A stretch of 64,000 nucleotides of DNA from an uncultured Nitrospirales bacterium (GCA_964474205.1 CAYYRW010000005.1:154161-218160), one strand, 5' to 3'. Positions 7,844 through 21,289 are shown, counted from the first letter of the stretch. The notes: generated from the sequence alone by a model not told the origin. Translations and numbers: made by a program.

Positions 7844-9244
7844 ATGGCTATGAAACGAAAAATGCAAAAATACGGATTGCCGCCGGAAAGTACACCAATT
7901 GTATTGGAGAGCATCTCGGACGGGGTGTTTACCGTAGACCATGAATGGCAGGTGACCTCGTTTAACCGGGCCGCCGAGGAGATTACAGGGATTCCACGCG
8001 GGGAGGCTATCGGGCGGCGGTGCTGTGAAGTGTTTCGCGCGAGCATGTGCGAAACGGAATGCGCGCTGCGCCGCACCATGGATTCAGGAAAGCCGATTAT
8101 TAACAAGTCCGCGTTCATTGTGGACGCCAACGGACGGCGCATTCCTATTAGCGTGTCGACTGCCTTGCTGCGGAATACGCAAGGCAAAATTATGGGCGGT
8201 GTCGAGACCTTCCGCGACCTGAGCCTGGTCGAAGAACTCCGTAAGGAAATTAAGCAGCGATACGAGATATGCGATATCGTAAGCCGGAGCCCCCTCATGC
8301 GGAAACTGTTCGACATCTTGCCGCAGGTGGCGGCGAGCGGGGCCACCGTGGTGATCGAAGGAGAAACGGGTACTGGAAAGGAATTGCTTGCCCGGGCCTT
8401 GCATTCCATGAGCCCCCGGCATGAAAAACCATTCGTTGCGATCAATTGCGGGGCCCTTCCGGACACCCTGTTGGAATCCGAACTTTTCGGATATGTGGCA
8501 GGCGCCTTCACCGGAGCGGACAAAGACAAGCCCGGACGCTTCGCCCTCGCGGAGGGCGGCACGCTGTTTCTGGACGAGATAGGGGACATCAGTCCGGCCT
8601 TGCAGGTGCGCCTGTTGCGCGTGCTCCAGGAAAAAACCTACGAACCGCTGGGCTGCACGAAAACATGCAAAACGAATGTGCGGATCATCACGGCATCCAA
8701 TAAAAACCTGGAGGAACTGGTCGAGAAGGGCCTGTTCCGGCAGGACCTCTTTTACCGCATTCATGTCGTGCGGCTCGAATTGCCCCCATTGCGCAAACGG
8801 AAAGAGGATATCCCGCTGCTGGCGGAACACTTTATTCACCGGTTCAACCAGACCCATGGACGGAAAATCACCGGCGTTTCCCATGACGCCATGACCCTTT
8901 TGATGGCACATGACTACCCCGGCAATATCCGCGAGCTGGAAAACATTATCGAGCATGCCTTTGTGATTTGTCCGGATACGGAGATTTGTCCGCGCTGTTT
9001 GCCGGAGTCCCTGACCGCGAACCGCGAAGCCTCGTTGCCCCATTCTCCTGATGGATTTGATTCACGGATAAAAGCGGCGGAGGCACAAGCTATCCTGGAG
9101 GCCTTGGCGCGGTGCGATGGAAACCGCAACGAAGCCGCCAAGGTTTTGGGAATGCACAAGAGCACCTTGTTCAGAAAGATAAAGATACTCGGTCTTTCAC
9201 TATCCAAAGGGGACGGCCGCAAAGGGCATTCTGGCCGTAAATAG
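7844..9244 (+). CDS. PAS-domain sigma-54 enhancer-binding activator (Fis HTH)
   Basis: Cys-rich PAS domain (RRCCEVFRASMCETEC), GETGTGKE, ESELFG, GAFTGA, LFLDEIG, PGNIREL, C-terminal HTH. Confidence 0.93.
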   Translation: MAMKRKMQKYGLPPESTPIVLESISDGVFTVDHEWQVTSFNRAAEEITGIPRGEAIGRRCCEVFRASMCETECALRRTMDSGKPIINKSAFIVDANGRRIPISVSTALLRNTQGKIMGGVETFRDLSLVEELRKEIKQRYEICDIVSRSPLMRKLFDILPQVAASGATVVIEGETGTGKELLARALHSMSPRHEKPFVAINCGALPDTLLESELFGYVAGAFTGADKDKPGRFALAEGGTLFLDEIGDISPALQVRLLRVLQEKTYEPLGCTKTCKTNVRIITASNKNLEELVEKGLFRQDLFYRIHVVRLELPPLRKRKEDIPLLAEHFIHRFNQTHGRKITGVSHDAMTLLMAHDYPGNIRELENIIEHAFVICPDTEICPRCLPESLTANREASLPHSPDGFDSRIKAAEAQAILEALARCDGNRNEAAKVLGMHKSTLFRKIKILGLSLSKGDGRKGHSGRK

Positions 9245-9245
9245 A

Positions 9246-9292
9246 GTTGCAATATCGCGACCCTATTTCTATTAGAATCTCATTACTGCAAC
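9246..9292. promoter_or_regulatory. Two putative enhancer (UAS) sites
   Basis: GTTGCAATATCGCGAC (9246-9261, 12/16 palindromic) and ATCTCATTACTGCAAC (9277-9292, 11/16 to the reverse complement of site 1), about 90-135 bp upstream of the -24/-12 element. Confidence 0.55.
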
Positions 9293-9378
9293 TCTTTTCC
9301 TTCACTCTATTGCTGACAATACGCTATAACTCATTGTCTTGAAATGCTTTATGTGAAATGAAAGGAATTCAAACGAGT

Positions 9379-9394
9379 TTGGCATGTATCTTGT
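9379..9394 (+). promoter_or_regulatory. Sigma-54 (-24/-12) promoter, non-canonical GT at -12
   Basis: TTGGCATGTATCTTGT (GG-N10-GT) between the activator gene and the first operon gene. Confidence 0.65.
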
Positions 9395-9444
9395 TACACT
9401 TGTATTGTGTTATCCCTGATAGTGGTTTGAATAAAGGAAAGAAC

Positions 9445-9855
9445 ATGAAAGCCGCCGTGACCGTTTGGGAAGGCAGAATATCGCCGGTACTCGATACCGC
9501 GCGTTCCTTGGTGGTGGCGGATATTGAAGCCGGCGGATGGACCTCCCAACACGAAGAAATCTTTCCGGACGATGCGCCTCAGGAGAAAGTCTCACGGCTT
9601 TGTGCACTGGGTGTGGAAGTTCTGGTGTGCGGGGCGGTATCGCGTCCCTTGGCGGAGCTGATTTCTTCGTCTGGTATTCGATTGGTACCGTTTGTCTCCG
9701 GCGGACTTGACGAGATTTTAACGGCGTTGGCGGATGAACGTTTGCCTGACCCGGCGTTTTCGATGCCGGGATGTGGATGCCGTCAGGGACACCGCTTCCG
9801 TGGCCGCCACCGCATGTGTTCCTCGCGCCGGCCAAGTGTAAGACGCAGTTTATAA
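9445..9855 (+). CDS. NifB/NifX-family (IPR003731) Fe-Mo cofactor-binding-like protein
   Basis: RISPVLDTA..., GVEVLVCGAVS, Cys/Arg-rich tail GCGCRQGHRFRGRHR; start 9445 with AAAGGAAAG upstream. Confidence 0.8.
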   Translation: MKAAVTVWEGRISPVLDTARSLVVADIEAGGWTSQHEEIFPDDAPQEKVSRLCALGVEVLVCGAVSRPLAELISSSGIRLVPFVSGGLDEILTALADERLPDPAFSMPGCGCRQGHRFRGRHRMCSSRRPSVRRSL

Positions 9856-9875: not shown

Positions 9876-10193
9876 ATGTTTGGATTCGGACAAAAAAAAG
9901 GAAGTGCCGGAATGGGTTCCGGCGGTGGCCAAGGTCAAGGCGGCGGTCAAGGTCAAGGCGGCGGCCGAGGTCAAGGCGGCGGCCGAGGTCAAGGCGGCGG
10001 TCAAGGTCAAGGCGGCGGCCGAGGGCAAGGCGGCGGTCAAGGTCAAGGCCGGGGCCGTCAAGGCGGCATCGCCGCAGGGCCTGTTGGAACGTGTTTGTGC
10101 CCGCAATGTGGGTATTCCCAACCTCATGAGCGTGGCGTGCCGTGCATACAGGTTGCCTGCCCGAAGTGTGGTGCATCTATGCGCCGAGGGTGA
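9876..10193 (+). CDS. Gly/Gln/Arg-repeat protein with C-terminal Cys-rich metal-binding module
   Basis: (GGG[Q/R]GQ)x7 followed by CLCPQCG..PHERGVPC....CPKCG; RBS GGAGAG. Confidence 0.7.
   Translation: MFGFGQKKGSAGMGSGGGQGQGGGQGQGGGRGQGGGRGQGGGQGQGGGRGQGGGQGQGRGRQGGIAAGPVGTCLCPQCGYSQPHERGVPCIQVACPKCGASMRRG
9921..10046 (+). repeat. 18-bp coding tandem repeat, 7 copies
   Basis: Unit GGCGGCGG(T/C)C(A/G)AGGTCAA encoding GGGQGQ or GGGRGQ. Confidence 0.9.
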
Positions 10194-10209
10194 ACCTTGA
10201 GTACAAACT

Positions 10210-11058
10210 ATGGAGAAAGAATCTGTGCCAGAAGCAAGTACTATTGAAAGGAAGAGCCTGAATTGGCGCGGTCTGACAAGTCTCGTCGTGACGCTGGCCT
10301 TTCTTATGCTTGCAACAACGGGAATTGTCCTGTATGTCTCGCCACAGGGGCGTGTGGCCAATTGGACTGGCTGGAACGTCTTGGGGCTTGGCAAGGAACA
10401 ATGGGCGGCCGTACATATGACCGCGAGTTTGCTCTTTATCACGGCCGCAGGTTTTCATGTCTACTTCAACTGGCAGGTGCTCATTCGTTACTTGGTGTTA
10501 AAACGAAAACTTCACCTTGCGCGTGAGTTGGCCGGTGCGGTGGTTGTGGTAGCGGTAGTGTTCACGGGCACGATTCTTGATGTTCCGCCCTTTAGCAGTA
10601 TCGTTGTCCTGAATGACGGTATCAAAGCCTATTGGGAAAGCAGGAGTTCCCAGGCGCCTTATCCTCATGCGGAGATATCGACACTAACGGATTTCAGCGA
10701 GCGGACCGGCATCTCCCTGACGGTTTTGCAAAAACGCCTTGCGGCGGCGGGGATTACGGTAAGCGACCCTGCGTCGCAGACGTTCGAAGCCTTGGCACAT
10801 GCCCACGGTCTTTCCCCCACAGACCTGTTTGCCAAAATCTCGGCGCGAAATACATCCAGAGGGCAAGGGTCCGGTTTGGGGCGGCAGACGATTCGGAGCC
10901 TATGCGAGAGGGACAGCCTTCCGTTGGAGAAGATTCTGGGCGTTTTGCAGCAGCAGGGATTTACTGCCAGTGCGGAATCAACCCTGAAGAATTTAGCAGA
11001 ACAGAAAGGCATGTCCCCGGCGGACGTCAGGGACTTGCTTGTTGAGACGAACAAATAG
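10210..11058 (+). CDS. DUF4405 membrane protein (cytochrome b-like His pair) with soluble C-terminal helical repeats
   Basis: TGIVLY..PQGRVA.W..W..LGLGKEQWAAVH...FHVYFNW. Confidence 0.75.
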   Translation: MEKESVPEASTIERKSLNWRGLTSLVVTLAFLMLATTGIVLYVSPQGRVANWTGWNVLGLGKEQWAAVHMTASLLFITAAGFHVYFNWQVLIRYLVLKRKLHLARELAGAVVVVAVVFTGTILDVPPFSSIVVLNDGIKAYWESRSSQAPYPHAEISTLTDFSERTGISLTVLQKRLAAAGITVSDPASQTFEALAHAHGLSPTDLFAKISARNTSRGQGSGLGRQTIRSLCERDSLPLEKILGVLQQQGFTASAESTLKNLAEQKGMSPADVRDLLVETNK

Positions 11059-11094
11059 AGAGCGGGTATGACCCGCACCAAAAGGAGATACAAA

Positions 11095-11460
11095 ATGCCA
11101 GCAAGAGATGGAACAGGACCGCAAGGCGCGGGACCAATGACAGGGCGCGGCGCGGGGCGTTGCGCTGGGATTACTATGCCGGCAAGCGCCAATATGATCG
11201 CGGGAAGACGTTTTTGTGGCCGCGGATTTGGATTTGGCGGAGGCGGAGGCGGCCGCGGGCGCCGCAATTGGTTTAACGCCACGGGATTGCCCGTGTGGAT
11301 GCGATTCGGCTGGAACGCACAGGCAACACCCGCAGTGCCGTTCGGCGAGACCGAACAGACCGTGTTACAACGTCAAGCGGAGATGCTTCAACAGCAGCTC
11401 GACGCGATCAAAATGCGGCTTGACGTGTTGGCGGCTAATGCGGACGCCGTGAAGCGATAA
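11095..11460 (+). CDS. DUF5320-family Gly/Arg-rich protein with coiled-coil tail
   Basis: MPARDGTGPQGAGPMTGRGAGRC, GRGFGFGGGGGGRGRRNWF, coiled coil LQRQAEMLQQQLDAIKMRL; RBS AAGGAG. Confidence 0.85.
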   Translation: MPARDGTGPQGAGPMTGRGAGRCAGITMPASANMIAGRRFCGRGFGFGGGGGGRGRRNWFNATGLPVWMRFGWNAQATPAVPFGETEQTVLQRQAEMLQQQLDAIKMRLDVLAANADAVKR

Positions 11461-11562: not shown

Positions 11563-12987
11563 ATGGTACAGTCGGCGAAAAGCAATCTCAGTCGATATGC
11601 CGTGGATTTCATTGACGATGCGCACTTGGGCAATGTATTGAAATGCGCATCGAACGATCCCGTGCGTATCCGTGAGGTCATTGCCAAAAGTCTCTCCAAG
11701 GAACCGCTGCAGATTGAGGAAACCGCAGCGCTATTGGCAGCGGACGCCCCGGATATTGTCGAGGAAATATTCGAAGGGGCACGCGAACTTAAGAAACGCG
11801 TTTATGGCAACCGGATTGTTCTGTTCGCGCCGCTCTATATCGGAAACGACTGTATCAACGACTGCCGTTACTGCGCCTTTCGCCGTTCCAACACGGGCGC
11901 TGTGCGTCGTACGCTGAGCACCCAGGAACTGGAAGATCAACTCCGGGCCCTGGAGAACAAAGGACACAAGCGGCTCATTCTTGTTTTTGGCGAGCACCCG
12001 AAGTACAACGCCGATTTTATCGCGGACTGTGTGCGGACGGCCTACCGTTTCAAGGTTGGACACGGAGAAATCCGGCGGGTTAACATCAACGCGGCGCCAC
12101 TCGATCTCGAAGGGTATCGGAAACTGAAGGACGCTGGGATTGGCACGTATCAGATTTTCCAGGAGACCTATCACCACGAGACGTATGCCCGGATGCATCC
12201 GGGAGGAACGCGCAAGGGGGACTACCTCTGGCGGCTTGATGGGCTTTCACGCGCCTTTGAAGCGGGTTGTGATGATGTGGGTCTTGGAGCGCTCTTCGGC
12301 CTCTATGACTGGAAGTTTGAGGTCTTGGGGCTGGTGAGTCATGCCTTGCATCTTCAGCGGACGTATGGGGTCGGATGTCATACAATCAGCTTCCCGAGGC
12401 TGCGTCCGGCGCATGGCGTGGACATGGAATGGCCGCACCTGGTCAGCGATCACGATTTCAAACGACTGGTTGCCATTCTGCGTTTGTCCGTTCCATACAC
12501 CGGCTTGATCCTGACCGCGCGAGAGCAGCCTGAGTTGCGGCGCGCGGTAATGGCCTTCGGGGTGTCGCAGATCGATGCCGGAAGCCGGGTCGAGTTGGGT
12601 GGATACACGGAACTAGGCGATGCCCAAGTCATGGAACGCGAGCAGTTTTCGTTGGGCGATATCCGTTCTCTGGATGAAGTCATGCGCGAACTGCTGGAGG
12701 ATGGGTACATCCCCAGTTTCTGCACCGCATGTTATCGGTTGGGACGCACCGGCGAACATTTTATGGAATTCGCCATACCCGGGTTTATCCAGAACTTCTG
12801 CACACCGAACGCCCTGACAACCCTAACGGAGTATCTTGTCGACTACGCCACGCCGGAGACCCGTGCGGCGGGAGAACGCGCGATCTCGCGCGAACTCGGG
12901 AGACTTCCCGATTCGCCCAAAAAGGAAGAGATTCTGAGACGTTTGCGTTGTATTGAGGAGACAGAACAACGTGATCTTTATTTCTAA
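11563..12987 (+). CDS. hydG: [FeFe]-hydrogenase H-cluster radical SAM maturase HydG
   Basis: FAPLYIGNDCINDCRYC (CX3CX2C), YQIFQETY, HTISFPR (dangler-Fe His position), C-terminal CTAC-X22-C auxiliary cluster motif that ThiH lacks. Confidence 0.9.
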   Translation: MVQSAKSNLSRYAVDFIDDAHLGNVLKCASNDPVRIREVIAKSLSKEPLQIEETAALLAADAPDIVEEIFEGARELKKRVYGNRIVLFAPLYIGNDCINDCRYCAFRRSNTGAVRRTLSTQELEDQLRALENKGHKRLILVFGEHPKYNADFIADCVRTAYRFKVGHGEIRRVNINAAPLDLEGYRKLKDAGIGTYQIFQETYHHETYARMHPGGTRKGDYLWRLDGLSRAFEAGCDDVGLGALFGLYDWKFEVLGLVSHALHLQRTYGVGCHTISFPRLRPAHGVDMEWPHLVSDHDFKRLVAILRLSVPYTGLILTAREQPELRRAVMAFGVSQIDAGSRVELGGYTELGDAQVMEREQFSLGDIRSLDEVMRELLEDGYIPSFCTACYRLGRTGEHFMEFAIPGFIQNFCTPNALTTLTEYLVDYATPETRAAGERAISRELGRLPDSPKKEEILRRLRCIEETEQRDLYF

Positions 12988-13025: not shown

Positions 13026-13406
13026 ATGCGTAAGACCATCGCCATCGTGGGCGCATCGGCGGACCGCGCCAAGTACGGCAATAAGGCCGTGCGCGCATTT
13101 CTTCAGGGCGGGTGGACCGTGTATCCTGTGAATCCTGCCGTTTCGGAGGTGGAAGGCGTGAAAGCGTATGCCTCGGTATCGGACATACCGGACGGCATTG
13201 ATCGCGTTTCCATGTATGTGCCCCCCGCCATTGGCCGGAAAATGCTTCCGGCCATTGCGGAAAAATCGCCGGCAGAGTTCTTCCTGAATCCAGGCGCGGA
13301 AAATCCTGAACTGCTGCGGGACGCCGAAGCGCTCGGCCTTCGACCGATTCAGGCGTGCAGCATTGTGAATATCGGATTGCGTCCGGATATGTTTCCGGAC
13401 GAGTAG
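13026..13406 (+). CDS. CoA-binding domain protein (YccU-like)
   Basis: IAIVGASADRAKYGNKAV, VYPVNP, LNPG, ACSIV. Confidence 0.85.
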   Translation: MRKTIAIVGASADRAKYGNKAVRAFLQGGWTVYPVNPAVSEVEGVKAYASVSDIPDGIDRVSMYVPPAIGRKMLPAIAEKSPAEFFLNPGAENPELLRDAEALGLRPIQACSIVNIGLRPDMFPDE

Positions 13407-13464: not shown

Positions 13465-14145
13465 ATGGAACAGCAGGCTGAACGGATGCCGCTAATTGGC
13501 GAAAAAGCGCCCTCGTTTAAGGCAGAGACCACACAGGGAGAAATCAATTTCCCGGATTGTTACAAAGGGAAGTGGGTGGTCTTTTTCTCTCATCCGGCGG
13601 ATTTCACGCCGGTATGCACCACGGAATTCATGACCTTCGCCTCGATGGCACAAGAATTCAAAAAACTGAATTGTGAACTCCTGGGTCTGTCCATTGACAG
13701 CACCTACAGTCACATCGCGTGGCTGCGCACCATCAAAGAGAAAATTACGTACAAGGGCATGAAGGGGATCGAGGTCATGTTTCCCGTCATCAGCGACCTG
13801 ACAATGGAAGTTTCCCGGAAATTCGGGATGCTGCAGCCCGGCGCAAGCAACACGCAAGCTGTCCGCGCGGTTTTCATCATAGACCCGAAAGGGATCGTCC
13901 GGGCGTTGTTCTACTACCCGCTTAGCAATGGCCGCAATATGGAAGAGGTCAAGCGATTATTGATCGCCATGCAACATTCCGATAAATATAACGTCGCCAC
14001 GCCTGCCAACTGGCAACTTGGCGATGATGTAATCGTCCCGCCGCCTGGATCCTGCGGAACGGCCAAAGAGCGCATGAACAAGCCCGCCCCCGGCACCAAA
14101 GTGCTGGATTGGTTCATGGTTTTGAAGAAGTGTCCGCACAAATAA
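13465..14145 (+). CDS. Peroxiredoxin, Prx6 subfamily
   Basis: FFSHPADFTPVCTTE, GLSIDS..SHIAW, GRNMEEVKR, TPANW. Confidence 0.92.
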   Translation: MEQQAERMPLIGEKAPSFKAETTQGEINFPDCYKGKWVVFFSHPADFTPVCTTEFMTFASMAQEFKKLNCELLGLSIDSTYSHIAWLRTIKEKITYKGMKGIEVMFPVISDLTMEVSRKFGMLQPGASNTQAVRAVFIIDPKGIVRALFYYPLSNGRNMEEVKRLLIAMQHSDKYNVATPANWQLGDDVIVPPPGSCGTAKERMNKPAPGTKVLDWFMVLKKCPHK

Positions 14146-14727: not shown

Positions 14728-15752
14728 GGGAGGATCGCTCCTTCATCGGCGCCCCGATTGGCGTTATTCACACCCAACATAGGGTCCCGGAAGAAACGCC
14801 TATCCAGCCGGCGTTCGCCATGAATTGTCCCGGCTGGCTTGAGGTTTTGCCTGAATATGCCGAGGGTCTGAAGAATCTTGAAGGATTTTCCCACATTGTG
14901 TTGCTTTATTATTTCCATCAGACCGGCCCTCCCCGGTTGACTGTGCGGCCATTTGTTGATGATACGCCCAGAGGTGTTTTTTCCACACGGCACCCACAAC
15001 GTCCCAATCCGATCGGTCTTTCTGTGGTGCGCCTGACGCGCATGGAAGGAACCCGTCTTTATATGGAGGGAATGGATATTTTGGATGGAACACCGTTGCT
15101 AGACATCAAGCCGTATATCCCAAAGTTTGACTGCCCGGAAAATGTGCGAGACGGTTGGTTTGGCGGGGTGGATGAAAAGACGGTGCAGCGGCGGGGCCGC
15201 AGGATGCGAAAAAAGCCCCAAGGGTGGCTGTCATTTTCTTTGATGTCCCTGGCGTTTTATTTCCGGGACCTGCTTCATCCGCCCGTAAAGATACTCCAGG
15301 AAGCAGGCTTGGCATCAGGTGCAACGGTGCTGGATTTTGGCTGCGGCCCCGGTGCGTTTTCTGTGGCGGCCGCCGGGATAGTGGGGCCAGGCGGCAAAGT
15401 TTTCGCCGTGGATGTCAATCCATTGGCGTTGGCCGCTGTCCATCGGACGGTGGAGAAAAAACAATTATGTAATGTCACCCTTTTATCACCAGCAGACCTC
15501 CTCGATATTCCGGAGGGCACTGTGGATATGGTCATCATGTATGATGTTCTCCACGATGTGCCCGATCCGCCGGCGGTGCTTGCATCGTTTTATCGATTGT
15601 TAAAGCCGGAAGGTCTTCTTACCGTCAGCGATCATCACATGATCAAAACAGCGATTTTTTCTGCTATTCAATCAAACGGCTTGTTTGAATTTTCCAACAA
15701 ATGGCATGGCCAAACAGGTTATTACTGCTTCAGGAGAGCCGCGCATGGCTGA
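14724..15752 (+). CDS. TrmO/TsaA-like domain fused to a class I SAM methyltransferase
   Basis: PIGVIHT, GLKNLEGFSHI, RGVFSTRHPQRPNPIGLS, DGTPLLDIKPY; then VLDFGCGPG, VFAVD, DVLHD. Confidence 0.8.
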   Translation: MREDRSFIGAPIGVIHTQHRVPEETPIQPAFAMNCPGWLEVLPEYAEGLKNLEGFSHIVLLYYFHQTGPPRLTVRPFVDDTPRGVFSTRHPQRPNPIGLSVVRLTRMEGTRLYMEGMDILDGTPLLDIKPYIPKFDCPENVRDGWFGGVDEKTVQRRGRRMRKKPQGWLSFSLMSLAFYFRDLLHPPVKILQEAGLASGATVLDFGCGPGAFSVAAAGIVGPGGKVFAVDVNPLALAAVHRTVEKKQLCNVTLLSPADLLDIPEGTVDMVIMYDVLHDVPDPPAVLASFYRLLKPEGLLTVSDHHMIKTAIFSAIQSNGLFEFSNKWHGQTGYYCFRRAAHG

Positions 15753-16620
15753 ACGAAGAATTATCGCAATAGCATCGGGCAAAGGCGGCACTGGGAAGAC
15801 CACGGTGGCCGTCAACCTGGCCTCCGTCATGGAGGGGATGGTCACCTACGCGGATTGCGACGTGGAGGAACCCAACGGGCATATCTTCTTGAAGCCCGCC
15901 CTGAACACCGGCAAGGCCGTTGGAATCCCTGTTCCCGTCGTGGATTCGGACAAGTGCACGGGCTGCGGAAGTTGCGCACAGGCATGCCGGTTCAACGCCA
16001 TCGCCTGTGTGCGAGAGAAGGTGCTGGTGTTCGCGGAGTTATGTCATGGGTGCGGGGGATGCGTCTTCGCCTGCCCTTCAAAGGCGATATCAGAAAAAGA
16101 GCATGGCATCGGAGTCGTGGAATCCGGCTATTCCAACCATCTTTCCTTTGTTCAAGGGCGGTTGCGTGTGGGCGCGGCAATGTCCCCGCCGCTGATCCGC
16201 GCGGTCATGGAATCCCTTCCCTCCGGCGGCAATGTGATTTTGGACGCGCCGCCGGGCACGTCCTGTCCCGTGATAGCGGCCATCAAGGGCAGTGATTATG
16301 TTGTATTGGTGACCGAGCCCACTCCCTTTGGCCTGCACGATCTGAAACTGGCCGTGGAAACCGTGCGGCAACTGGGCCTTCCCTTCGGGGTGGTGGTGAA
16401 CCGGTGTGATATTGGCGATGACCGGGTGGGGGACTATTGCCGGGAAGAGGCTATTCCCATACTCGTGGAAATTCCCGATGACCGGCGCATCGCCGAGGCT
16501 TATTCGCGCGGGGAGGTGGCGGTGGACGCCGTCCCCGGACTGCGCGGGGTATTCATGCAACTGGACCAGCGGATTCGCGAGTGCACAACAACGCTTAATG
16601 CGTTAAAAGGCGGCGCATGA
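15745..16620 (+). CDS. MinD-superfamily P-loop ATPase with inserted ferredoxin (COG1149-like)
   Basis: IASGKGGTGKTT, DCDVEEPN, two CxxCxxCxxxC motifs, DAPPGTSCP, VTEPTPFGLHD. Confidence 0.9.
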   Translation: MAERRIIAIASGKGGTGKTTVAVNLASVMEGMVTYADCDVEEPNGHIFLKPALNTGKAVGIPVPVVDSDKCTGCGSCAQACRFNAIACVREKVLVFAELCHGCGGCVFACPSKAISEKEHGIGVVESGYSNHLSFVQGRLRVGAAMSPPLIRAVMESLPSGGNVILDAPPGTSCPVIAAIKGSDYVVLVTEPTPFGLHDLKLAVETVRQLGLPFGVVVNRCDIGDDRVGDYCREEAIPILVEIPDDRRIAEAYSRGEVAVDAVPGLRGVFMQLDQRIRECTTTLNALKGGA

Positions 16621-17597
16621 TGATGCAGACGGTTCCACCCGGACGACGCTATACGCATATCTTCGGCCCCGTCCTTTCACGCCGTTTGGGAAGATCCCTC
16701 GGCGTTGACATTATGCCGTTCAAAACCTGCACCTATGATTGCCTCTATTGTGAACAGGGCCGGACCACCAACCACACGGCCCGCCGGGCCGTATATGTAT
16801 CCTGTGCGGAGGTGCTTGATGAATTGAAGCATTTTTTGTCGTCCATGCCCGAACCCGATTACATCACCTTGTCCGGCGCGGGGGAACCCACGCTTCATGC
16901 GGAACTCGGCGATCTTGTTCAGGGAATCAAGGCGATGACCGGCGTTCCCCTGGCCGTAATCACAAACGGCTCTTTGTTGTGGGACGTGAAGGTCCGGGAT
17001 GGACTGAAAAGGGCCGATGTGGTATTGCCGTCGCTGGACGCCGGCAATGCCCGGCTGTTCACCCGGATCAACCGCCCCGTTCCGGACATATCCTTCGATC
17101 AGATGCTTGGCGGCTTGATGGCATTTCGGGAGTCATTTCCCAATGAGATGTGGCTCGAGGTGATGCTTATGGACGGTATCACTTCCGGGGATTCGGAAGT
17201 CCGGGAAATCGCCGAACAGGTCCGGCGTTTTCGGCCCAATCGAATTCAGTTAAACACGGTGGTGCGTCCACCCGCGGAGCCCTCTGCTCGGCCAATTCCG
17301 AGAGCACGGCTCGAATCGCTCGCGGCCTTCTTTGAACCGCGTGCGGAGCCCATTGCGGACTATGCCGGCGCCATCCAGGAAATGAATGATTTCCCCGATG
17401 CGGATCGCCTGTTGAAACTCCTGGAACGGCGGCCCTGTTCGCTCATGCAGATTGCCGCCACACTGGGCCTGCGGCCGGTCGAAACGTCAAAGATTATTGA
17501 ACACCTTGCGGGGCAGAACAAGATTGTTCAGGAATGCTTTGGTAATTGCCTGTTTTTTTCAGCGGCGCATAAGGCCAATGAGGAAGAAAGTAGATGA
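16617..17597 (+). CDS. Radical SAM protein (COG0731-like)
   Basis: FGPVLSRRLGRSLGVD, CTYDCLYC, ITLSGAGEPTL, VITNGSLL, PSLDA. Confidence 0.88.
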   Translation: MMMQTVPPGRRYTHIFGPVLSRRLGRSLGVDIMPFKTCTYDCLYCEQGRTTNHTARRAVYVSCAEVLDELKHFLSSMPEPDYITLSGAGEPTLHAELGDLVQGIKAMTGVPLAVITNGSLLWDVKVRDGLKRADVVLPSLDAGNARLFTRINRPVPDISFDQMLGGLMAFRESFPNEMWLEVMLMDGITSGDSEVREIAEQVRRFRPNRIQLNTVVRPPAEPSARPIPRARLESLAAFFEPRAEPIADYAGAIQEMNDFPDADRLLKLLERRPCSLMQIAATLGLRPVETSKIIEHLAGQNKIVQECFGNCLFFSAAHKANEEESR

Positions 17598-18610
17598 AAG
17601 AACTCGTTGTGATTAGTGGCAAAGGTGGAACGGGCAAGACCAGTGTCGTTGCGGCTTTTGCGTCGCTGGCGGAACACAAGGTGCTGGCGGATTGCGATGT
17701 GGATGCGGCGGATCTTCATTTGATCCTTCAACCGGAAAACCGATCCATCCATGAATTTCGCAGTGGAAACGAGGCCATCATTCGCCCGGAGGTCTGCATC
17801 GGCTGCGGCGCGTGTCTGGTGCATTGCCGCTTTGGGGCGGTGAAACAGACTTCCGGCGTGGATGTCGAGTGGATGCTGCGCGCCTCCGCGCATGACTGCG
17901 GCGATTGTGATTTTTGCGTGCGTTCCTGCCCCAACCGCTCCGTTGACATGCTCCATGCAATACAGGAAAGCCTGGGTGCGGAAGCCAAGGCCGCCTTTGT
18001 TATTGATCCGCTTGCCTGTGAAGGGTGTGGCGTATGCGTGGATGCCTGCCCCGCAAAAGCGATAGATTTCCCGGAACGGCGTGCCGGGGAATGGTACATT
18101 TCGGACACGCGGCACGGTCCCATGGTGCATGCACGGCTGGGCATCGCCGCGGAAAATTCGGGGAAACTGGTGAGCCTTGTGCGACAGCAGGCTCGTCAGC
18201 TTGCCGTGGAACAGGGCAATGATTTGATATTGATTGACGGCCCCCCCGGAATAGGATGCCCGGTCATCGCCAGCATCACGGGCGCCTCGCTGGTGCTTAT
18301 TATCACGGAACCCACCCTCAGCGGCCAGCACGACTTTCAGCGCGTGGCCGAACTGGCGCGGCACTTCAACATTCCGGCGATGGTTTGTGTTAACAAGTGG
18401 AATCTGAATCCCGAAATGACGGAAGCCATTGAGGCGTCCGCGGAAGCCCTCGGCGTGAAATCCCTGGGAAGAATACGGTATGATCGATCCATCACCGAGG
18501 CACAAGTGGCGGGAAAAAACGTGTTGGAATATTCCGAAAAGGGCGCCAGTGAGGATATCCGTGGCCTTTGGGCGCGTCTGGATTCGTTTTTATCCGCCCG
18601 TGAAAATTGA
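17594..18610 (+). CDS. Second COG1149-like MinD/ferredoxin ATPase with three 4Fe-4S motifs
   Basis: SGKGGTGKTS, DCDVDAADL, CIGCGACLVHC, CGDCDFCVRSCP, CEGCGVCVDACP, GKLV, DGPPGIGCP. Confidence 0.9.
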   Translation: MKELVVISGKGGTGKTSVVAAFASLAEHKVLADCDVDAADLHLILQPENRSIHEFRSGNEAIIRPEVCIGCGACLVHCRFGAVKQTSGVDVEWMLRASAHDCGDCDFCVRSCPNRSVDMLHAIQESLGAEAKAAFVIDPLACEGCGVCVDACPAKAIDFPERRAGEWYISDTRHGPMVHARLGIAAENSGKLVSLVRQQARQLAVEQGNDLILIDGPPGIGCPVIASITGASLVLIITEPTLSGQHDFQRVAELARHFNIPAMVCVNKWNLNPEMTEAIEASAEALGVKSLGRIRYDRSITEAQVAGKNVLEYSEKGASEDIRGLWARLDSFLSAREN

Positions 18611-18744: not shown

Positions 18745-19914
18745 ATGCCTAACGATCCCTTGACCCCCTATGGAAACCGTCCGATGGTGACGCCCATCGT
18801 CAACGCCGTGAATTACAAGTATCTTTCGTTTGATGTGTTGCGGCAAATCACCGATGGCGAGATTGATGGCTATACCTACCACCGCGACGACAACCCGACG
18901 GTGCGCGAAGTCGAGCGCCAAATGGCGGCGCTGGAAGGCGCCGAAGACTGTGTTGTCTGCACTTCGGGCATGGCCGCCTGCACCATGGTGTACCTGACCT
19001 ACTTGCAGGCGGGGGATCATGTCATCATTTTTCACGACACCTACGGCGCCAATTATAAGGTCTCGTTAATCCTTGAACGGTTGGGCATTGCGTTCACCTG
19101 GATGGATGCCGACGATGCCGGTCAAATCGAGCAGCAGCTTCGCGCCAACACGCGCATGATTTTTCTGGAGACGCCCACCAACCCCTTGTGTAAAATTATG
19201 GATGTACCCGCCCTCCGCCGCGCCGCGGATACGGTGGGCGCCATGCTGGTGGTGGACAACACCTTCGCCACGCCGTATCACCAAAATCCCTTAACCTTGG
19301 GGGCCGATTTGGTTGTACACAGCGCCACCAAGGCCCTCGGGGGGCACAATGATCTCATGGCGGGCGCCATCGCTGGTTCAAAAGAACACTACAACCGGTT
19401 GTGGTTCACCCGGCAGGCCATTGGCACCACCTTGGATGCCTATTCCGCCTTTCTGCTGGAACGGGGTCTGAAAACCTTTGACCTGCGCGCCGCCGCCATG
19501 GCACGCGGCGCACAGGCCGTCGCGGAATTCCTCGCCAGGCATCCGGCGGTCTCGCGGGTTTCCTATCCGGGGCTTCCCGATCATCCCGGGCATGCCGTGG
19601 CGGCGCGCCAGATGCACCGCGGTTTTGGCGGCATGCTTTCCTTCGACGTGGGCCAGGATGAAGAACATGCCAAGCGGTTTATCGCGGCGCTGCGCACCAT
19701 TTGCCACGCAGTCAGCCTGGGTGCAACGGAATCTCTAATCTGCATTCCGCATCTGACAACCATGCTGTATTTACCGCCGGAACGGCGGGCCCTCTTTGGA
19801 GTGAAGAAAAACACCGTCCGGTTGTCGGTGGGCATTGAACCGCCGGAAACCCTGTTGGCCGATCTGAAGCAGGCGCTGGCGTGTGTCGAGCAGGACGCCG
19901 CGCCCCATGGATAG
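18745..19914 (+). CDS. PLP-dependent trans-sulfuration enzyme (cystathionine gamma-synthase / Met or Cys lyase family)
   Basis: YHRDDNPT, SGMAA, LETPTNP, VDNTFATP, VHSATKALGGH (PLP Lys), VSLGATESL, RLSVGIE; RBS AAGGAG. Confidence 0.9.
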   Translation: MPNDPLTPYGNRPMVTPIVNAVNYKYLSFDVLRQITDGEIDGYTYHRDDNPTVREVERQMAALEGAEDCVVCTSGMAACTMVYLTYLQAGDHVIIFHDTYGANYKVSLILERLGIAFTWMDADDAGQIEQQLRANTRMIFLETPTNPLCKIMDVPALRRAADTVGAMLVVDNTFATPYHQNPLTLGADLVVHSATKALGGHNDLMAGAIAGSKEHYNRLWFTRQAIGTTLDAYSAFLLERGLKTFDLRAAAMARGAQAVAEFLARHPAVSRVSYPGLPDHPGHAVAARQMHRGFGGMLSFDVGQDEEHAKRFIAALRTICHAVSLGATESLICIPHLTTMLYLPPERRALFGVKKNTVRLSVGIEPPETLLADLKQALACVEQDAAPHG

Positions 19915-19923
19915 TTTTTTCAC

Positions 19924-19939
19924 TTGGCATGCATCATGT
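19924..19939 (+). promoter_or_regulatory. Second putative sigma-54 promoter
   Basis: TTGGCATGCATCATGT, 14/16 identical to the 9379-9394 element; about 50 bp upstream of the mrp-nifX start. Confidence 0.5.
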
Positions 19940-19990
19940 CCATGATGGACAGGTTGTTAACAAAAAGTTCGTTAGGAGATAGTACGCTAT

Positions 19991-21289
19991 ATGGAAGACA
20001 CCGATTCCGCCGTTTTCTCACAAGCGGCCCAAAAGCACGAGGCGGAGCCCATTTCGTGCGGCTCCTGTGACAAGGAAACGTGTTCGAGCAAGGTCCGGCG
20101 CCACAATGAAAGCGACAAAGACTTTTTGGAACGCCAGGAACTTGCTGAACGGTTATGCCAAATCAAGCATAAAATTCTTGTCTTGTCCGGAAAGGGCGGT
20201 GTGGGCAAAAGCACGGTGGCGGTCAATCTCGCCGTATCCTTAATGCTGGCCGGAAAGCGGGTAGGGCTGTTGGACGTGGATATTCATGGCCCCAGCATTC
20301 CGAAGATGATGCATCTGGAAGGTTCTCCGGTGTTGACCGAAGGGGACCGCCTGCTTCCCATCGAGGTGGGCGATATGAAGGTGTTGTCACTCGGATTCTT
20401 TCTGAAAAGCGCCGATGACGCGGTGATCTGGCGCGGACCCATGAAAATGGGGGTTATCAAGCAGTTTTTGAAGGATGCCTGCTGGGGTAAACTGGATTAT
20501 CTGGTTGTTGATTCCCCCCCCGGAACGGGTGACGAGCCGTTGTCCGTTTGTCAGCTTATTGAGAATGCCGATGGCGCAATCATTGTAACGACGCCGCAGG
20601 ATGTCTCCGTCGCCGATGTGCGCCGCTCGATCAGTTTTTGCCACGCACTTCACCTTCCCGTGCTGGGCGTGGTGGAAAACATGAGCGGTTTTGTTTGCCC
20701 GCACTGTGGTGAAATCACGAATATTTTCAAGACGGGAGGCGGGGCGCGGATGGCCGCCGAAATGGCCGTCCCCTTCTTGGGCTGCATCCCCCTTGACCCC
20801 AAGGTGGGCGAGTCCTGTGATGCCGGCGCCCCCTATGTGCACCATTATGCCGGCAGCGAAACCGCGAAAGCGTTTAACCAAATTATTCAACCCATTCTTG
20901 CACTGGATGGCGTTAAAACACCGCCATCCCTCGAAAAGGAGAGTAGAACGATGCGTATTGCGATTCCCGTGGCCAATGGAAGGCTTGCGATGCACTTTGG
21001 GCATTGCGAACAGTTCGCGCTTGTGGATGTGGAGCCAGCGGAGAAACAGATTGTTAAAACGGAACTGGTGGACGCGCCGGAACATCAGCCGGGGCTGCTG
21101 CCGCGCTGGCTCGGCGAAAGAGGGGCCAACGTGATCATCGCAGGCGGCATGGGCTCGCGCGCCCAAACCCTGTTTGCCGAGCAGGGGATAGCGGTGATCG
21201 TGGGCGCGCCCGCGGAAACCATCGAGTATTTGATAAAGTCTTATCTGGAAGGTACTTTGGAACCGGGCGAAAATGTCTGTGATCATTGA
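19991..21289 (+). CDS. Mrp/NBP35 (ApbC) Fe-S carrier ATPase fused to a C-terminal NifB/NifX domain
   Basis: N-terminal CGSCDKETC, SGKGGVGKST, DVDIHGPS, VIWRGP, DSPPGTGD, ENMSGFVCPHCG; then MRIAIPV...MHFGHC...HQPG...IAGGMG. Confidence 0.92.
   Translation: MEDTDSAVFSQAAQKHEAEPISCGSCDKETCSSKVRRHNESDKDFLERQELAERLCQIKHKILVLSGKGGVGKSTVAVNLAVSLMLAGKRVGLLDVDIHGPSIPKMMHLEGSPVLTEGDRLLPIEVGDMKVLSLGFFLKSADDAVIWRGPMKMGVIKQFLKDACWGKLDYLVVDSPPGTGDEPLSVCQLIENADGAIIVTTPQDVSVADVRRSISFCHALHLPVLGVVENMSGFVCPHCGEITNIFKTGGGARMAAEMAVPFLGCIPLDPKVGESCDAGAPYVHHYAGSETAKAFNQIIQPILALDGVKTPPSLEKESRTMRIAIPVANGRLAMHFGHCEQFALVDVEPAEKQIVKTELVDAPEHQPGLLPRWLGERGANVIIAGGMGSRAQTLFAEQGIAVIVGAPAETIEYLIKSYLEGTLEPGENVCDH

What the first reader, a model, noticed from the sequence alone, without database searches (positions are those of the whole stretch)
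7844..21289. Sigma-54 operon joining a locally orphan HydG to an IssA/NifX-like Fe-S handling cluster
Seen: a bona fide HydG (CX3CX2C, dangler His, CX2CX22C) with no hydE, hydF or hydA anywhere in the 64 kb. It is embedded among three NifB/NifX domains, two ferredoxin-MinD ATPases, Mrp/ApbC, a second radical SAM enzyme, a PLP sulfur-amino-acid lyase, DUF4405, DUF5320, a CoA-binding protein and Prx6, all co-oriented behind a PAS enhancer-binding protein. Established: HydG cleaves Tyr to CO and CN and builds an Fe(CO)2(CN)-cysteine synthon. NifX-type domains carry Fe-S cofactor precursors. Pyrococcus IssA (same domain family) stores Fe and S. Mrp/ApbC carries Fe-S clusters. Inference: either a dedicated Fe/S/cysteine supply line for H-cluster maturation, or an undescribed pathway in which the HydG synthon is handed to NifX-like carriers for a different organometallic cofactor.
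Basis: partly seen in the sequence, partly recalled or inferred. Interest (0 to 1): 0.78.

Follow-up and report, generated by a model that had tools for sequence, protein, structure and literature searches.

The report
hydG embedded in orange-protein (ORP) operon
A normal-looking hydrogenase-maturation gene (hydG) sits inside a redox-controlled operon for the poorly understood 'orange protein' iron-sulfur complex, and the pairing recurs in at least ten related uncultured bacteria, which makes that complex a testable candidate for supplying iron and sulfur to HydG.

Summary
Window 7844-21289 is one co-oriented gene row behind a PAS/sigma-54 activator. It contains a bona fide HydG, and no hydE, hydF or hydA lies anywhere in the 64 kb.

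It has MrpORP, two MinD-ferredoxin ATPases (Orp3/4-like), an orange-protein homologue and an OrpR-type activator. The activator carries the published Fe-S cysteine triad. A sigma-54 promoter is positionally conserved in 8 related operons.

The window comes from Hydrogenedentota, a phylum reported to be rich in [FeFe]-hydrogenases. Its HydG shows no sign of changed constraint: 192 of 193 conserved columns are kept.

In about 150 relatives at 75% identity or less, hydG sits in ordinary hydA / hydE-hydG-aspA-hydF loci. Every hydG at 76-89% identity whose context I read lies inside an ORP operon. That gives 10 distinct arrangements counting the window, with hydG at several positions in the operon; L042 at 75% adds another. 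Some sister operons lack hydG.

Best reading: canonical hydG was recruited into the low-redox OrpR regulon, probably next to its Fe-S/cysteine suppliers. A new organometallic cofactor is not excluded but is unlikely. Whether hydE/hydF exist elsewhere in these genomes could not be tested.

The parts
4961..5440 (+). FUR-family (PerR-like) regulator; conserved flank of the operon
   Evidence: Pfam FUR, E 5e-25. FUR-catalase lies next to the activator in L163, L171 and L175 as well.
5564..7018 (+). Catalase; conserved flank
   Evidence: Pfam Catalase, 644 bits. 95%, 87% and 90% identical to the catalases flanking the operons in L163, L171 and L175.
7039..7791 (+). Dual-specificity/Tyr-phosphatase-like protein; a mobile member of the neighbourhood
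   Evidence: Pfam Tc-R-P / PTP-SAK. Homologues at 62-70% identity lie downstream of MrpORP in L165, L168 and L174.
7844..9244 (+). OrpR-type sigma-54 enhancer-binding protein (PAS, AAA+ with GAFTGA, HTH_8)
   Evidence: Pfam. The PAS domain carries C60-x-E62-x6-C69-x3-C73, which matches the DvH OrpR Fe-S ligands C52/E54/C61/C65 (PMC8359166).
9245..9262 (.). Imperfect palindrome AGTTGCAATATCGCGACC; candidate activator-binding site
   Evidence: Related palindromes (~AGTCGCA-N4-TGCGACT) lie just after the activator gene in seven related operons. Similar in layout to the DvH OrpR site GGGCGYRTTTTGCGCCC. Binding was not tested.
9380..9395 (+). Sigma-54-type promoter TGGCATGTATCTTGTT (-24 GG / -12 TG)
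   Evidence: TGGCA[CT]-N5-[TCA]TG[CT] lies roughly 30-70 bp upstream of the first NifX gene in all 8 related operons examined. Window-wide, the motif is no more frequent than chance, so the evidence is positional conservation.
9445..9855 (+). NifX-like protein with a conserved C-terminal MPGCGC...Arg-rich tail (first gene of the operon)
   Evidence: Pfam Nitro_FeMo-Co, 25.7 bits, below the 26.3 cut-off. Orthologues with the same tail occur in L163, L165, L168, L171 and L174.
9876..10193 (+). Small Gly/Gln/Arg-rich protein ending in CxCPxCG-x3-PHxRGxPC-x4-CPxCG; candidate small metal-binding Orp component
   Evidence: This frame is conserved in L165 and L174. The alternative frame 9880-10200 used by public gene calls is not. 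No Pfam hit.
10210..11058 (+). DUF4405 membrane protein
   Evidence: Pfam DUF4405, 65.9 bits. Also present in L165 and L172.
11068..11460 (+). DUF5320 protein; the most frequent upstream neighbour of hydG
   Evidence: Pfam DUF5320, 93.9 bits. Directly upstream of hydG in the window, L165/6, L168/9, L171 and L174; a DUF5320-like ORF precedes hydG in L042.
11563..12987 (+). HydG, [FeFe]-hydrogenase H-cluster radical SAM maturase (tyrosine lyase that builds the Fe(CO)2(CN)Cys synthon)
   Evidence: TIGR03955 489 bits against a 312 cut-off. 4WCX E 2e-142. All cluster ligands and His260 are invariant. 192 of 193 conserved columns are kept.
13026..13406 (+). CoA_binding_2 protein
   Evidence: Pfam, 92.6 bits. 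Follows hydG in L165 and L168. Follows DUF5320 directly in L167, where hydG is absent.
13465..14145 (+). Peroxiredoxin with a 1-Cys Prx C-terminal domain
   Evidence: NF009668 319 bits against a 211 cut-off. 72-91% identical copies lie in L083, L165, L167, L168, L172 and L173.
14365..14727 (+). Orange-protein (Orp8) homologue; single-domain NifX/Di-Nase protein
   Evidence: Pfam Nitro_FeMo-Co, 77.5 bits. Best solved-structure match is 2WFB, 'ORP', E 3.8e-22.
14724..15752 (+).
   Evidence: Pfam TrmO_N 135 bits plus Methyltransf_31. TIGR00104 125 bits against a 93 cut-off. TrmO genes also occur in L042 and L175.
15745..16620 (+). MinD/ParA-type ATPase with an inserted 2x[4Fe-4S] ferredoxin domain (Orp3/Orp4-like)
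   Evidence: Pfam CbiA plus Fer4. Start taken from the gene call on identical DNA in L081. Orp3/Orp4 description in PMC6345978.
16623..17597 (+). Radical SAM protein of unknown function (CX3CX2C; COG0731/TYW1-like), accessory
   Evidence: Pfam Radical_SAM. No NCBIfam equivalog. No solved relative. Absent from the operon in L171 and found outside ORP operons in L176.
17594..18610 (+). Second MinD/ParA-ferredoxin ATPase (Orp3/Orp4-like)
   Evidence: Pfam CbiA plus Fer4_7.
18745..19914 (+). Cys/Met-metabolism PLP enzyme (cystathionine gamma-lyase/synthase family); possible cysteine or sulfide source
   Evidence: Pfam Cys_Met_Meta_PP, 398 bits. No NCBIfam equivalog reaches its cut-off. Best solved match 4L0O, E 1e-85. 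82% identical copies lie in L083, L165 and L168.
19991..21289 (+). MrpORP (Orp9): Mrp/NBP35 P-loop Fe-S carrier fused to a NifX/Di-Nase domain
   Evidence: NF041136 540.8 bits against a 450 cut-off. GKGGVGKS, CPHC and the HFGHCE motif are present. Motifs as described in PMC6345978.

Best explanation
Window 7844-21289 is an expanded orange-protein (ORP) operon of a Hydrogenedentota bacterium.

Regulation. An OrpR-type activator carries a redox-sensitive Fe-S cluster in its PAS domain. By analogy with Desulfovibrio, it would switch on a sigma-54 promoter at 9380-9395 only at low redox potential. The promoter would drive one co-oriented row of genes.

Content. The ORP core is two NifX-type proteins, a small Cys-rich protein, DUF5320, two MinD-ferredoxin ATPases and the Fe-S carrier MrpORP. 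The accessories are DUF4405, a CoA-binding protein, a peroxiredoxin, a TrmO-methyltransferase, a second radical SAM enzyme and a PLP cysteine/methionine enzyme.

Role of hydG. A fully canonical hydG has been recruited into this row. It most likely still cleaves tyrosine and builds the Fe(CO)2(CN)(Cys) synthon for [FeFe]-hydrogenases encoded elsewhere, working with hydE and hydF that are also elsewhere.

What the placement would achieve. First, the committed and oxygen-labile step of H-cluster synthesis would be made only under strict anoxia. Second, HydG would be produced together with carriers that can rebuild its clusters and reload its sacrificial 'dangler' iron and cysteine (MrpORP, NifX-type proteins, the PLP enzyme).

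Shown: gene identities, the regulatory motifs, the canonical sequence of HydG, and the conservation of the embedding.

Inferred: operon transcription, redox gating, presence of hydE/F/A elsewhere, and any physical supply from Orp proteins to HydG.
For: Identity of the system:
- MrpORP is above its equivalog cut-off.
- The best solved match of the 120-aa NifX protein is the D. gigas orange protein 2WFB.
- There are two MinD-ferredoxin ATPases.
- The activator has the OrpR cysteine triad, conserved in all 7 related activators (PMC8359166).
- A sigma-54 promoter and a palindrome are positionally conserved in 8 operons.

HydG is canonical:
- TIGR03955 489 bits.
- All ligands are invariant.
- Only 1 of 193 conserved columns is changed.
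- Identity to other HydGs (71.7%) equals the mean between canonical HydGs (71.1%).

Taxon and clients:
- All 9 organism-named FtsZ hits are Candidatus Hydrogenedentes.
- L171 is GCA_019455225.1, classified as Hydrogenedentota.
- The phylum holds 492 [FeFe]-hydrogenases in 179 genomes (PMC11406978).

Conserved embedding:
- Every hydG at 76-89% identity whose context was read lies in an ORP operon: L165/6, L168/9, L171, L174, L172, L083, L173, L175. L042 at 75% does too.
- hydG sits at several different positions in these operons.
- These HydGs form one exclusive clade in the tree. Bootstrap is 100 for the core and 35 for all 12. In the earlier, smaller tree, the core plus L083 had bootstrap 94.
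- About 150 HydGs at 75% identity or less sit in hydA / hydE-hydG-aspA-hydF loci.

Plausibility of supply:
- MrpORP transfers Fe-S clusters to apo-proteins (PMC6345978).
- HydG needs a carrier to load its dangler iron with cysteine, and the native carriers are unknown in organisms without NfuA (PMC12501116).
Against: - No hydE, hydF or hydA was found within 10 kb of any ORP-embedded hydG. I could not examine the rest of those genomes.
- The embedding is not universal. L163 is the closest relative by flanking genes (catalase 95% identical), and L167 has the same kind of operon. Both lack hydG. The L167 contig carries a solitary hydG elsewhere.
- The ORP-context HydGs may all descend from one insertion. 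The many loci are therefore not independent events, and deep-node support is weak (35%).
- Co-transcription and redox control are inferred from motifs and from Desulfovibrio.
- The function of the ORP complex itself is unknown. A role in cell division has been proposed.
Confidence: 0.6

Rival explanations
1. Co-regulation only. hydG landed in an operon that is expressed under strict anoxia and is kept there because that timing is convenient. The Orp proteins do not serve HydG in any specific way.
For: - hydG is absent from otherwise equivalent operons (L163, L167).
- It is solitary elsewhere on the contig that carries L167.
- hydG scattered away from hydE/F is common in these phyla.
- The operon's accessory content is very variable.
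- OrpR in Desulfovibrio is a pure redox switch (PMC8359166).
Against: - hydG stays inside the operon through several rearrangements. It is found next to DUF5320, NifX, MrpORP or the PLP enzyme.
- It persists even in minimal versions such as Prx-NifX-HydG-MrpORP in L173, where no activator gene lies nearby.
- HydG has a known, unmet need for an Fe-S/iron carrier.
Confidence: 0.25
2. New pathway. In these genomes HydG works without HydE/HydF and hands its Fe(CO)2(CN) synthon, or free CO/CN, to NifX-type/ORP carriers to build a different organometallic cofactor.
For: - No hydE/F/A lies within 10 kb of any of the 12 ORP-context hydGs.
- NifX-type domains are cofactor carriers.
- A second radical SAM enzyme and methyltransferases are often present.
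- A Pro-to-Cys change next to the invariant His273 marks the core subclade.
Against: - The HydG sequence shows no relaxed or altered constraint.
- The second radical SAM, the methyltransferase and the PLP enzyme are dispensable (L171, L173).
- The phylum is rich in [FeFe]-hydrogenases, which require HydG.
- The same ORP system exists without hydG in Desulfovibrio and in sister operons.
Confidence: 0.07
3. The protein is really a ThiH-type tyrosine lyase for thiamine synthesis, or the adjacency is an assembly or binning artefact.
For: ThiH is the nearest paralogous family (280 bits). JGI pipelines label many of these proteins '2-iminoacetate synthase'.
Against: - The ThiH score is below its 380-bit cut-off, while HydG is far above its own.
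- The HydG-specific C-terminal CX2CX22C domain is present.
- The same gene order occurs in independent assemblies from different samples.
Confidence: 0.02

Closest known systems
Orange-protein (ORP) complex and OrpR regulon of Desulfovibrio vulgaris Hildenborough (Orp3, Orp4, Orp5, Orp8, Orp9/MrpORP; OrpR = DVU2106)
   Same: - MrpORP two-domain carrier with CXXC and HFGHCE motifs.
- Two MinD-ferredoxin ATPases.
- A single-domain orange-protein homologue.
- A sigma-54 activator with the PAS cysteine triad.
- A sigma-54 promoter with an upstream GC-cored, AT-centred palindrome.
   Different: - One long co-directional operon instead of two divergent ones.
- Extra NifX-type protein with a Cys/Arg tail.
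- Added DUF5320, DUF4405, peroxiredoxin, CoA-binding protein, TrmO-methyltransferase, radical SAM and PLP enzyme.
- Above all, an embedded hydG. OrpR ChIP-seq maps the DvH regulon to only the two orp operons, which the papers read here describe without hydG. No paper in the library links HydG with ORP.
Canonical [FeFe]-hydrogenase maturation loci (hydE-hydG-aspA-hydF beside hydA/nuoEF/rex)
   Same: The HydG is 70-75% identical to those in such loci, with identical cluster ligands and domain layout.
   Different: None of hydE, hydF, aspA or hydA is nearby. The neighbours are Fe-S carriers and redox-stress genes, and expression is apparently under OrpR/sigma-54 rather than Rex or two-component control.
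NfuA as iron/Fe-S carrier for HydG in the defined in-vitro maturation system (PMC12501116)
   Same: It is an Fe-S carrier that would rebuild HydG clusters and reload the dangler iron together with cysteine. The operon offers an Mrp-type carrier (fused to NifU_N in several relatives) and a possible cysteine-producing enzyme.
   Different: No NfuA homologue is present here. The proposed carriers are Mrp/NBP35 and NifX-type proteins, and nothing has been tested.
Pyrococcus furiosus IssA
   Same: Shares the NifX/Di-Nase fold family. The first NifX-like protein has a cationic C-terminal tail.
   Different: The tail here is Cys-rich (MPGCGC...) and short. No thioferrate-storage evidence exists. The MrpORP paper itself states that Orp9 lacks the IssA tail.

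Membership tests
HydG (TIGR03955) | Radical SAM CX3CX2C motif | tested here: met
   C97-x3-C101-x2-C104, invariant in 171 aligned HydGs.
HydG (TIGR03955) | C-terminal auxiliary-cluster motif CX2CX22C, absent from ThiH | tested here: met
   C387, C390 and C413 are invariant.
HydG (TIGR03955) | Conserved histidine that ligates the dangler iron | tested here: met
   His260 aligns with the His at position 266 of the 4WCX chain and is invariant. The second invariant His273 is also kept. Which of the two is the published His265 rests on my reading of the numbering.
HydG (TIGR03955) | Equivalog score above cut-off and above the paralogue ThiH | tested here: met
   489.1 bits against a 312.15 cut-off. 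ThiH scores 279.9 bits against 380.
HydG (TIGR03955) | Co-occurrence with hydE, hydF and an [FeFe]-hydrogenase in the same genome | not testable with these tools
   Absent from the 64 kb and from +/-10 kb of all ORP-context hydGs. The genomes could not be searched. The phylum-level literature is favourable.
HydG (TIGR03955) | Tyrosine cleavage to CO and CN- and synthon formation | not testable with these tools
   Needs biochemistry.
ORP system (Desulfovibrio) | MrpORP: Mrp/NBP35 P-loop domain with CXXC, plus a Di-Nase domain with the HFGHCE motif | tested here: met
   NF041136 540.8 bits against 450. GKGGVGKS, CPHC and HFGHCE are seen in the translation. Motifs per PMC6345978.
ORP system (Desulfovibrio) | Two paralogous MinD-type ATPases, each with two [4Fe-4S] ferredoxin motifs (Orp3, Orp4) | tested here: met
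   Pfam CbiA/ParA plus Fer4 on 15745-16620 and 17594-18610.
ORP system (Desulfovibrio) | Single-domain orange protein (Orp8) | tested here: met
   14365-14727 against 2WFB 'ORP', E 3.8e-22 over residues 2-108.
ORP system (Desulfovibrio) | OrpR: sigma-54 activator whose PAS domain carries three conserved Cys plus an acidic residue | tested here: met
   C60-x-E62-x6-C69-x3-C73 has the same spacing as C52/E54/C61/C65. Conserved in 7 of 7 related activators, all with GAFTGA.
ORP system (Desulfovibrio) | Sigma-54 promoter with an upstream palindromic OrpR site | tested here: inconclusive
   The motifs are present and positionally conserved in 8 operons. The palindrome resembles the DvH site but is not identical. 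Function was not tested.
ORP system (Desulfovibrio) | Two divergent orp operons flanking orpR | tested here: not met
   All genes here are co-directional downstream of the activator.
ORP system (Desulfovibrio) | Small [2Fe-2S] protein Orp5 | tested here: inconclusive
   The candidate is the Cys-rich 105-aa product of 9876-10193. No Orp5 sequence was available for comparison.
ORP system (Desulfovibrio) | Mo-Cu (S2MoS2CuS2MoS2) cluster on the orange protein; complex formation | not testable with these tools
   Needs biochemistry. Relatives L175 and L042 add FmdE, and L175 also adds ModA-like genes.
ThiH (TIGR02351) | Score above the equivalog cut-off; no C-terminal cluster domain | tested here: not met
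   279.9 bits against a 380 cut-off. The C-terminal domain is present.
IssA-type Fe/S storage protein | NifX domain plus a cationic C-terminal tail that binds thioferrate | tested here: inconclusive
   9445-9855 has a weak NifX domain and a Cys/Arg-rich tail. There was no sequence comparison with IssA and no chemistry.

The most novel reading that the evidence does not exclude
In this Hydrogenedentota lineage, HydG works without HydE/HydF. It delivers its Fe(CO)2(CN) unit, or CO/CN ligands, to NifX-type orange-protein carriers, making a non-hydrogenase organometallic iron cofactor under OrpR control.

A milder and more likely novel reading is that the ORP complex is the native iron/sulfur/cysteine donor of HydG. 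That would give the ORP complex its first defined biochemical role. I put this at roughly 0.35.
Probability: 0.07. Interest if true: 0.95.

Novelty: new variant of a known kind. Interest (0 to 1): 0.6.

Why it matters
Two open questions meet here.

First, the orange-protein complex of anaerobes has had no defined function since its description in 2011. [quoted passage not shown]

Second, the hydrogenase-maturation field has just shown that HydG needs an Fe-S/iron carrier to reload its sacrificial dangler iron. It states that the native carriers are unknown in organisms that lack NfuA (PMC12501116).

A hydG kept inside ORP operons through many rearrangements is a concrete lead for both questions. 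It nominates MrpORP, the NifX-type proteins, DUF5320 and the PLP enzyme as candidates. These can be tested directly in the existing defined maturation assay.

It also predicts that H-cluster synthesis in Hydrogenedentota is gated by redox potential through an Fe-S-sensing sigma-54 activator.

If the link turns out to be co-regulation only, the result is still a tidy annotation of a widespread but unannotated operon in an uncultured phylum.

Tried and rejected
1. The two large collection scans with HydG stopped at 600 pattern matches. They missed the closest relatives (87-88% identity). At first they suggested that the adjacency was almost unique. Anchoring on the second radical SAM protein and on the protein database corrected this.

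2. I tried to learn whether genomes with ORP-embedded hydG have hydE/F/A. The supplements of PMC11406978 hold GCA_019455225.1 only in the metadata and KO sheets. The hydrogenase sheets are truncated. The window's 234-kb source contig is not retrievable. I ran no further search on HydF. Only the best 120 hits are listed, and a non-Hydrogenedentota query would probably not surface the relevant proteins. I used that search to fix the taxon with FtsZ instead.

3. Rfam found no riboswitch or other RNA in the window.

4. The sigma-54 consensus is not enriched window-wide (28 matches against 37.7 expected). Only positional conservation supports the promoter.

5. The second radical SAM protein has no solved relative and no equivalog. 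It also occurs outside ORP operons, so I treat it as an accessory gene.

6. My crude ORF caller picked antisense shadow ORFs in GC-rich loci. Counts were therefore redone with tblastn.

7. Fievet et al. 2011 (PMC3133258) is not held. ORP facts come from the three later papers.

Full report
**What is in the window**

The + strand from 7844 to 21289 carries a tight row of genes:
- a PAS / AAA+ / HTH sigma-54 activator (7844-9244)
- a weak NifX-type protein (true start probably ATG 9445, end 9855)
- a small Gly/Cys-rich protein (9876-10193)
- DUF4405 (10210-11058)
- DUF5320 (11068-11460)
- HydG (11563-12987)
- a CoA_binding_2 protein (13026-13406)
- a peroxiredoxin (13465-14145)
- a NifX protein (14365-14727)
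- a TrmO_N-methyltransferase fusion (14724-15752)
- a MinD-ferredoxin ATPase (15745-16620)
- a radical SAM protein (16623-17597)
- a second MinD-ferredoxin ATPase (17594-18610)
- a Cys/Met PLP enzyme (18745-19914)
- an Mrp-NifX fusion (19991-21289)

It missed the TrmO-methyltransferase and the small Cys-rich gene. Public gene calls read that small gene in the wrong frame. The frame starting at 9876 gives a C-terminal CxCPxCG...PHxRGxPC...CPxCG motif that is conserved in L165 and L174.

**HydG is genuine**

- It scores 489 bits on the HydG equivalog model (cut-off 312). On ThiH it scores only 280 bits (cut-off 380).
- It matches the solved HydG 4WCX at E = 2e-142 over its full length.
- It has C97x3C101x2C104, C387x2C390x22C413 and His260. 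These are identical in all 171 HydGs I aligned.
- tblastn with HydE, HydF, HydA, AspA, NuoE/F and Rex taken from related hyd loci finds none of them in the 64 kb.
- The rest of the window is housekeeping: murC-ftsQ-ftsZ, Mla, LigA, MoxR/DUF58 and others.
- Identical DNA is present in two independent assemblies, so the order is not an artefact.

**The surrounding cluster has a name**

- The last gene scores 540.8 bits on NF041136, 'iron-sulfur cluster carrier protein MrpORP' (cut-off 450). It carries the P-loop, the CPHC motif and the HFGHCE motif described for Desulfovibrio Orp9 (PMC6345978).
- The best solved-structure match of the 120-aa NifX protein is 2WFB, the Desulfovibrio gigas orange protein (E 3.8e-22).
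- The two MinD-ferredoxin ATPases correspond to Orp3 and Orp4.
- The activator's PAS domain has C60-x-E62-x6-C69-x3-C73. This is exactly the spacing of C52, E54, C61 and C65, which hold the redox-sensing [4Fe-4S] cluster of OrpR (PMC8359166). The motif and GAFTGA are conserved in all seven related activators.
- Between the activator and the first NifX gene lie an imperfect palindrome (9245-9262) and a sigma-54-type promoter (9380-9395).
- Window-wide, the promoter consensus is not enriched.
- However, TGGCA[CT]-N5-[TCA]TG[CT] sits roughly 30-70 bp upstream of the first NifX gene in all eight related operons examined. Seven of them carry similar palindromes (~AGTCGCA-N4-TGCGACT). The Desulfovibrio OrpR site is GGGCGYRTTTTGCGCCC.

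This is therefore an ORP/OrpR system. It is arranged as one operon rather than two divergent ones, and it has many extra genes.

**Whose genome**

- All nine organism-named hits to the window's FtsZ are Candidatus Hydrogenedentes. The best named hits to the radical SAM protein and to HydG are the same.
- One relative, L171, lies in GCA_019455225.1. A survey of the phylum classifies that assembly as Hydrogenedentota and rates it 98.9% complete.
- That survey found 492 [FeFe]-hydrogenase sequences in 179 genomes and group A3 enzymes in most members (PMC11406978).
- A HydG in this phylum therefore has obvious clients.

**Is the adjacency conserved?**

The first two scans returned 160 loci with HydGs 67-79% identical. 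Almost all are textbook loci. Neighbours were identified as HydF, group A6 HydA, aspartate ammonia-lyase, NuoE/F-like subunits and Rex. In the genome scan, 69 of 80 loci have hydE, hydF or hydA within 10 kb. Only L042 and L083 had ORP-type neighbours.

These scans were truncated and missed the nearest relatives. Anchoring on the second radical SAM protein and on the protein database gave a different picture. Every HydG between 76% and 89% identity whose context I read is inside an ORP operon:

| Locus | HydG identity | Gene order around hydG |
|---|---|---|
| L165/L166 | 88% | DUF5320-HydG-CoA_binding-Prx-NifX, as in the window |
| L168/L169 | 87% | DUF5320-HydG-CoA_binding-Prx-NifX, as in the window |
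| L171 | 83% | activator-NifX-DUF5320-HydG-NifX-MinD-MinD-NifU/MrpORP |
| L174 | 83% | activator-NifX-x-DUF5320-HydG-NifX-MinD-rSAM-MinD-NifU/MrpORP |
| L083 | 79% | ...MinD-PLP enzyme-HydG-MrpORP |
| L172 | 78% | NifX-HydG-Prx-DUF4405-MinD... |
| L173 | 77% | Prx-NifX-HydG-MrpORP |
| L175 | 77% | NifX-TrmO-x-HydG-methyltransferase-MinD-FmdE-ModA-like... |

L042 (75%) has DUF5320-NifX-?-TrmO/FmdE-[assembly gap]-DUF5320-like-HydG.

None of these loci has hydE, hydF, hydA or aspA within 10 kb.

In a neighbour-joining tree, all 12 ORP-context HydGs form one clade that contains no canonical-context member. Bootstrap is 100 for the core at 83% identity or more, and 35 for all twelve. In the earlier, smaller tree, the core plus L083 had bootstrap 94.

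**The embedding is not universal**

- L163 has the closest flanks to the window (catalase 95%, activator 87% identical). Its operon is shorter, with no hydG, no PLP enzyme and no MrpORP.
- L167 has DUF5320 followed directly by the CoA-binding gene. That is an empty site exactly where hydG sits in the window.
- The same 2.17-Mb contig carries a solitary hydG elsewhere, among glycosyl-hydrolase and glycosyltransferase genes. The nearest relatives of that hydG are the ORP-clade HydGs.
- So hyd maturase genes are dispersed in this lineage anyway. The ORP position is one frequent and persistent home for hydG, not an obligatory one.

**Has this HydG changed function?**

I see no sign of it.
- Of 193 alignment columns at least 95% conserved in 158 other HydGs, only one differs in the clade. 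It is Pro272 to Cys, next to the invariant His273, and it occurs only in the core at 83% identity or more.
- The window protein's mean identity to other HydGs (71.7%) equals the mean between canonical HydGs (71.1%).
- A recruited enzyme making a different product would be expected to drift.

**How it most likely works**

Shown: the parts, the motifs and the conservation.

Established elsewhere:
- OrpR activates sigma-54 transcription only at low redox potential, through its PAS Fe-S cluster (PMC8359166).
- MrpORP binds Fe-S clusters and transfers them to apo-proteins (PMC6345978).
- HydG consumes a cysteine-bound dangler iron at each turnover. In vitro it needs an Fe-S carrier (NfuA) plus cysteine to be reloaded, and the native carriers are unknown in organisms without NfuA (PMC12501116).

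Inferred:
- In this lineage, hydG is transcribed with the orp genes from the OrpR-dependent promoter. The first committed and oxygen-labile step of H-cluster synthesis would then be restricted to strict anoxia.
- The co-produced carriers (MrpORP, NifX-type proteins, perhaps DUF5320 and the small Cys protein) and the PLP enzyme would keep HydG supplied with clusters, iron and cysteine.
- The synthon would then go to HydE and HydF encoded elsewhere.

I give this whole picture about 0.6. A version with co-regulation but no specific supply gets about 0.25. A pathway to a different organometallic cofactor gets about 0.07.

**Novelty**

- Both the ORP system and HydG are known.
- The papers read here describe the Desulfovibrio orp operons without hydG. 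The library search found no paper that mentions HydG together with the orange protein, MrpORP, Orp3 or DUF5320.
- The conserved embedding of hydG in ORP operons of Hydrogenedentota, and perhaps a planctomycete MAG, is therefore a new variant of a known kind.
- It matters because it ties an orphan complex to a maturation step whose in-vivo iron donor is an acknowledged gap, and the link can be tested with existing assays.

**Main limitation**

I could not search the genomes that carry ORP-embedded hydG for hydE, hydF and hydA. That one computation would settle the choice between the ordinary and the exotic readings.

Noticed in passing
In L042 the TrmO domain is fused to an FmdE-like domain. 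In L175 the operon also holds FmdE, two ModA-like binding proteins and an ABC transporter. This hints at a molybdate/tungstate link, which recalls the Mo-Cu cluster reported on the orange protein.
   Followed up: partly
window 9876-10193 (overlaps the alternative frame 9880-10200): A small protein with a Gly/Gln/Arg-rich repeat and a conserved C-terminal CxCPxCG-x3-PHxRGxPC-x4-CPxCG motif. Public gene calls (L082, L168) use the other frame, which gives an Ala/Lys/Val repeat with no conservation. It has no Pfam family. It may be the small Fe-S Orp component.
   Followed up: partly
window 4961-7791; L163 4008-6031; L171 5426-7408; L175 3849-5887: A FUR-family regulator and a catalase lie next to the OrpR-type activator in four related loci. 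A dual-specificity-phosphatase-like gene moves between the upstream and downstream ends of the operon. With the peroxiredoxin and, in relatives, ferritin, the region looks like a redox-stress and iron island.
   Followed up: partly
window 9445-9855 (C-terminal 30 residues): The first NifX-like protein ends in a conserved MPGCGC-x2-G-x-RF-x-GRR...C tail rich in Arg. The tail is shared by orthologues in five loci. Its cationic character recalls the IssA tail, but it is Cys-rich.
   Followed up: no
window 12376-12378 (HydG residue 272): Pro272 is replaced by Cys directly before the invariant His273, in the GVG[P/C]HTIS motif. The change occurs in all seven HydGs of the core subclade at 83% identity or more. 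Only 2 of 159 other HydGs have it. Its significance is unknown.
   Followed up: partly
window about 11470-11500; L165, L168, L174 at the equivalent place: A short inverted repeat (AAGGAG-N8-CTCCTT, degenerate in the window) is conserved just after the DUF5320 stop codon and upstream of hydG. It could be a processing or stabilising hairpin, or a weak attenuator. It has no T-run.
   Followed up: no
window 24324-27880: murC-ftsQ-ftsZ lies 3 kb downstream of MrpORP. The Desulfovibrio ORP complex has been proposed to act in septum positioning. The proximity is not conserved in L163/L164, so it may be coincidence.
   Followed up: partly
window 3679-4770; L167 2621-3532: DUF1559 / N-terminal-methylation-motif proteins occur here in Hydrogenedentota. 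From my own knowledge they are typical of the Planctomycetota-Verrucomicrobiota group. In L167 one sits between the activator and the operon, behind a second sigma-54-like motif.
   Followed up: no
L169 16622-18085; L176 17853-19245; L167 20521-20963: Mobile or diversity-generating elements flank related loci. L169 has a group II intron-type reverse transcriptase. L176 has a reverse transcriptase with a bAvd accessory gene (retroelement-like). L167 has a serine recombinase.
   Followed up: no
L018, L047, L063, L031 (Thermoguttaceae/Planctomycetaceae MAGs): A separate clade of planctomycete HydGs also lacks hydE/F/A within 10 kb, and it has no ORP genes nearby. This shows that split hyd loci are common in these phyla.
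   Followed up: partly
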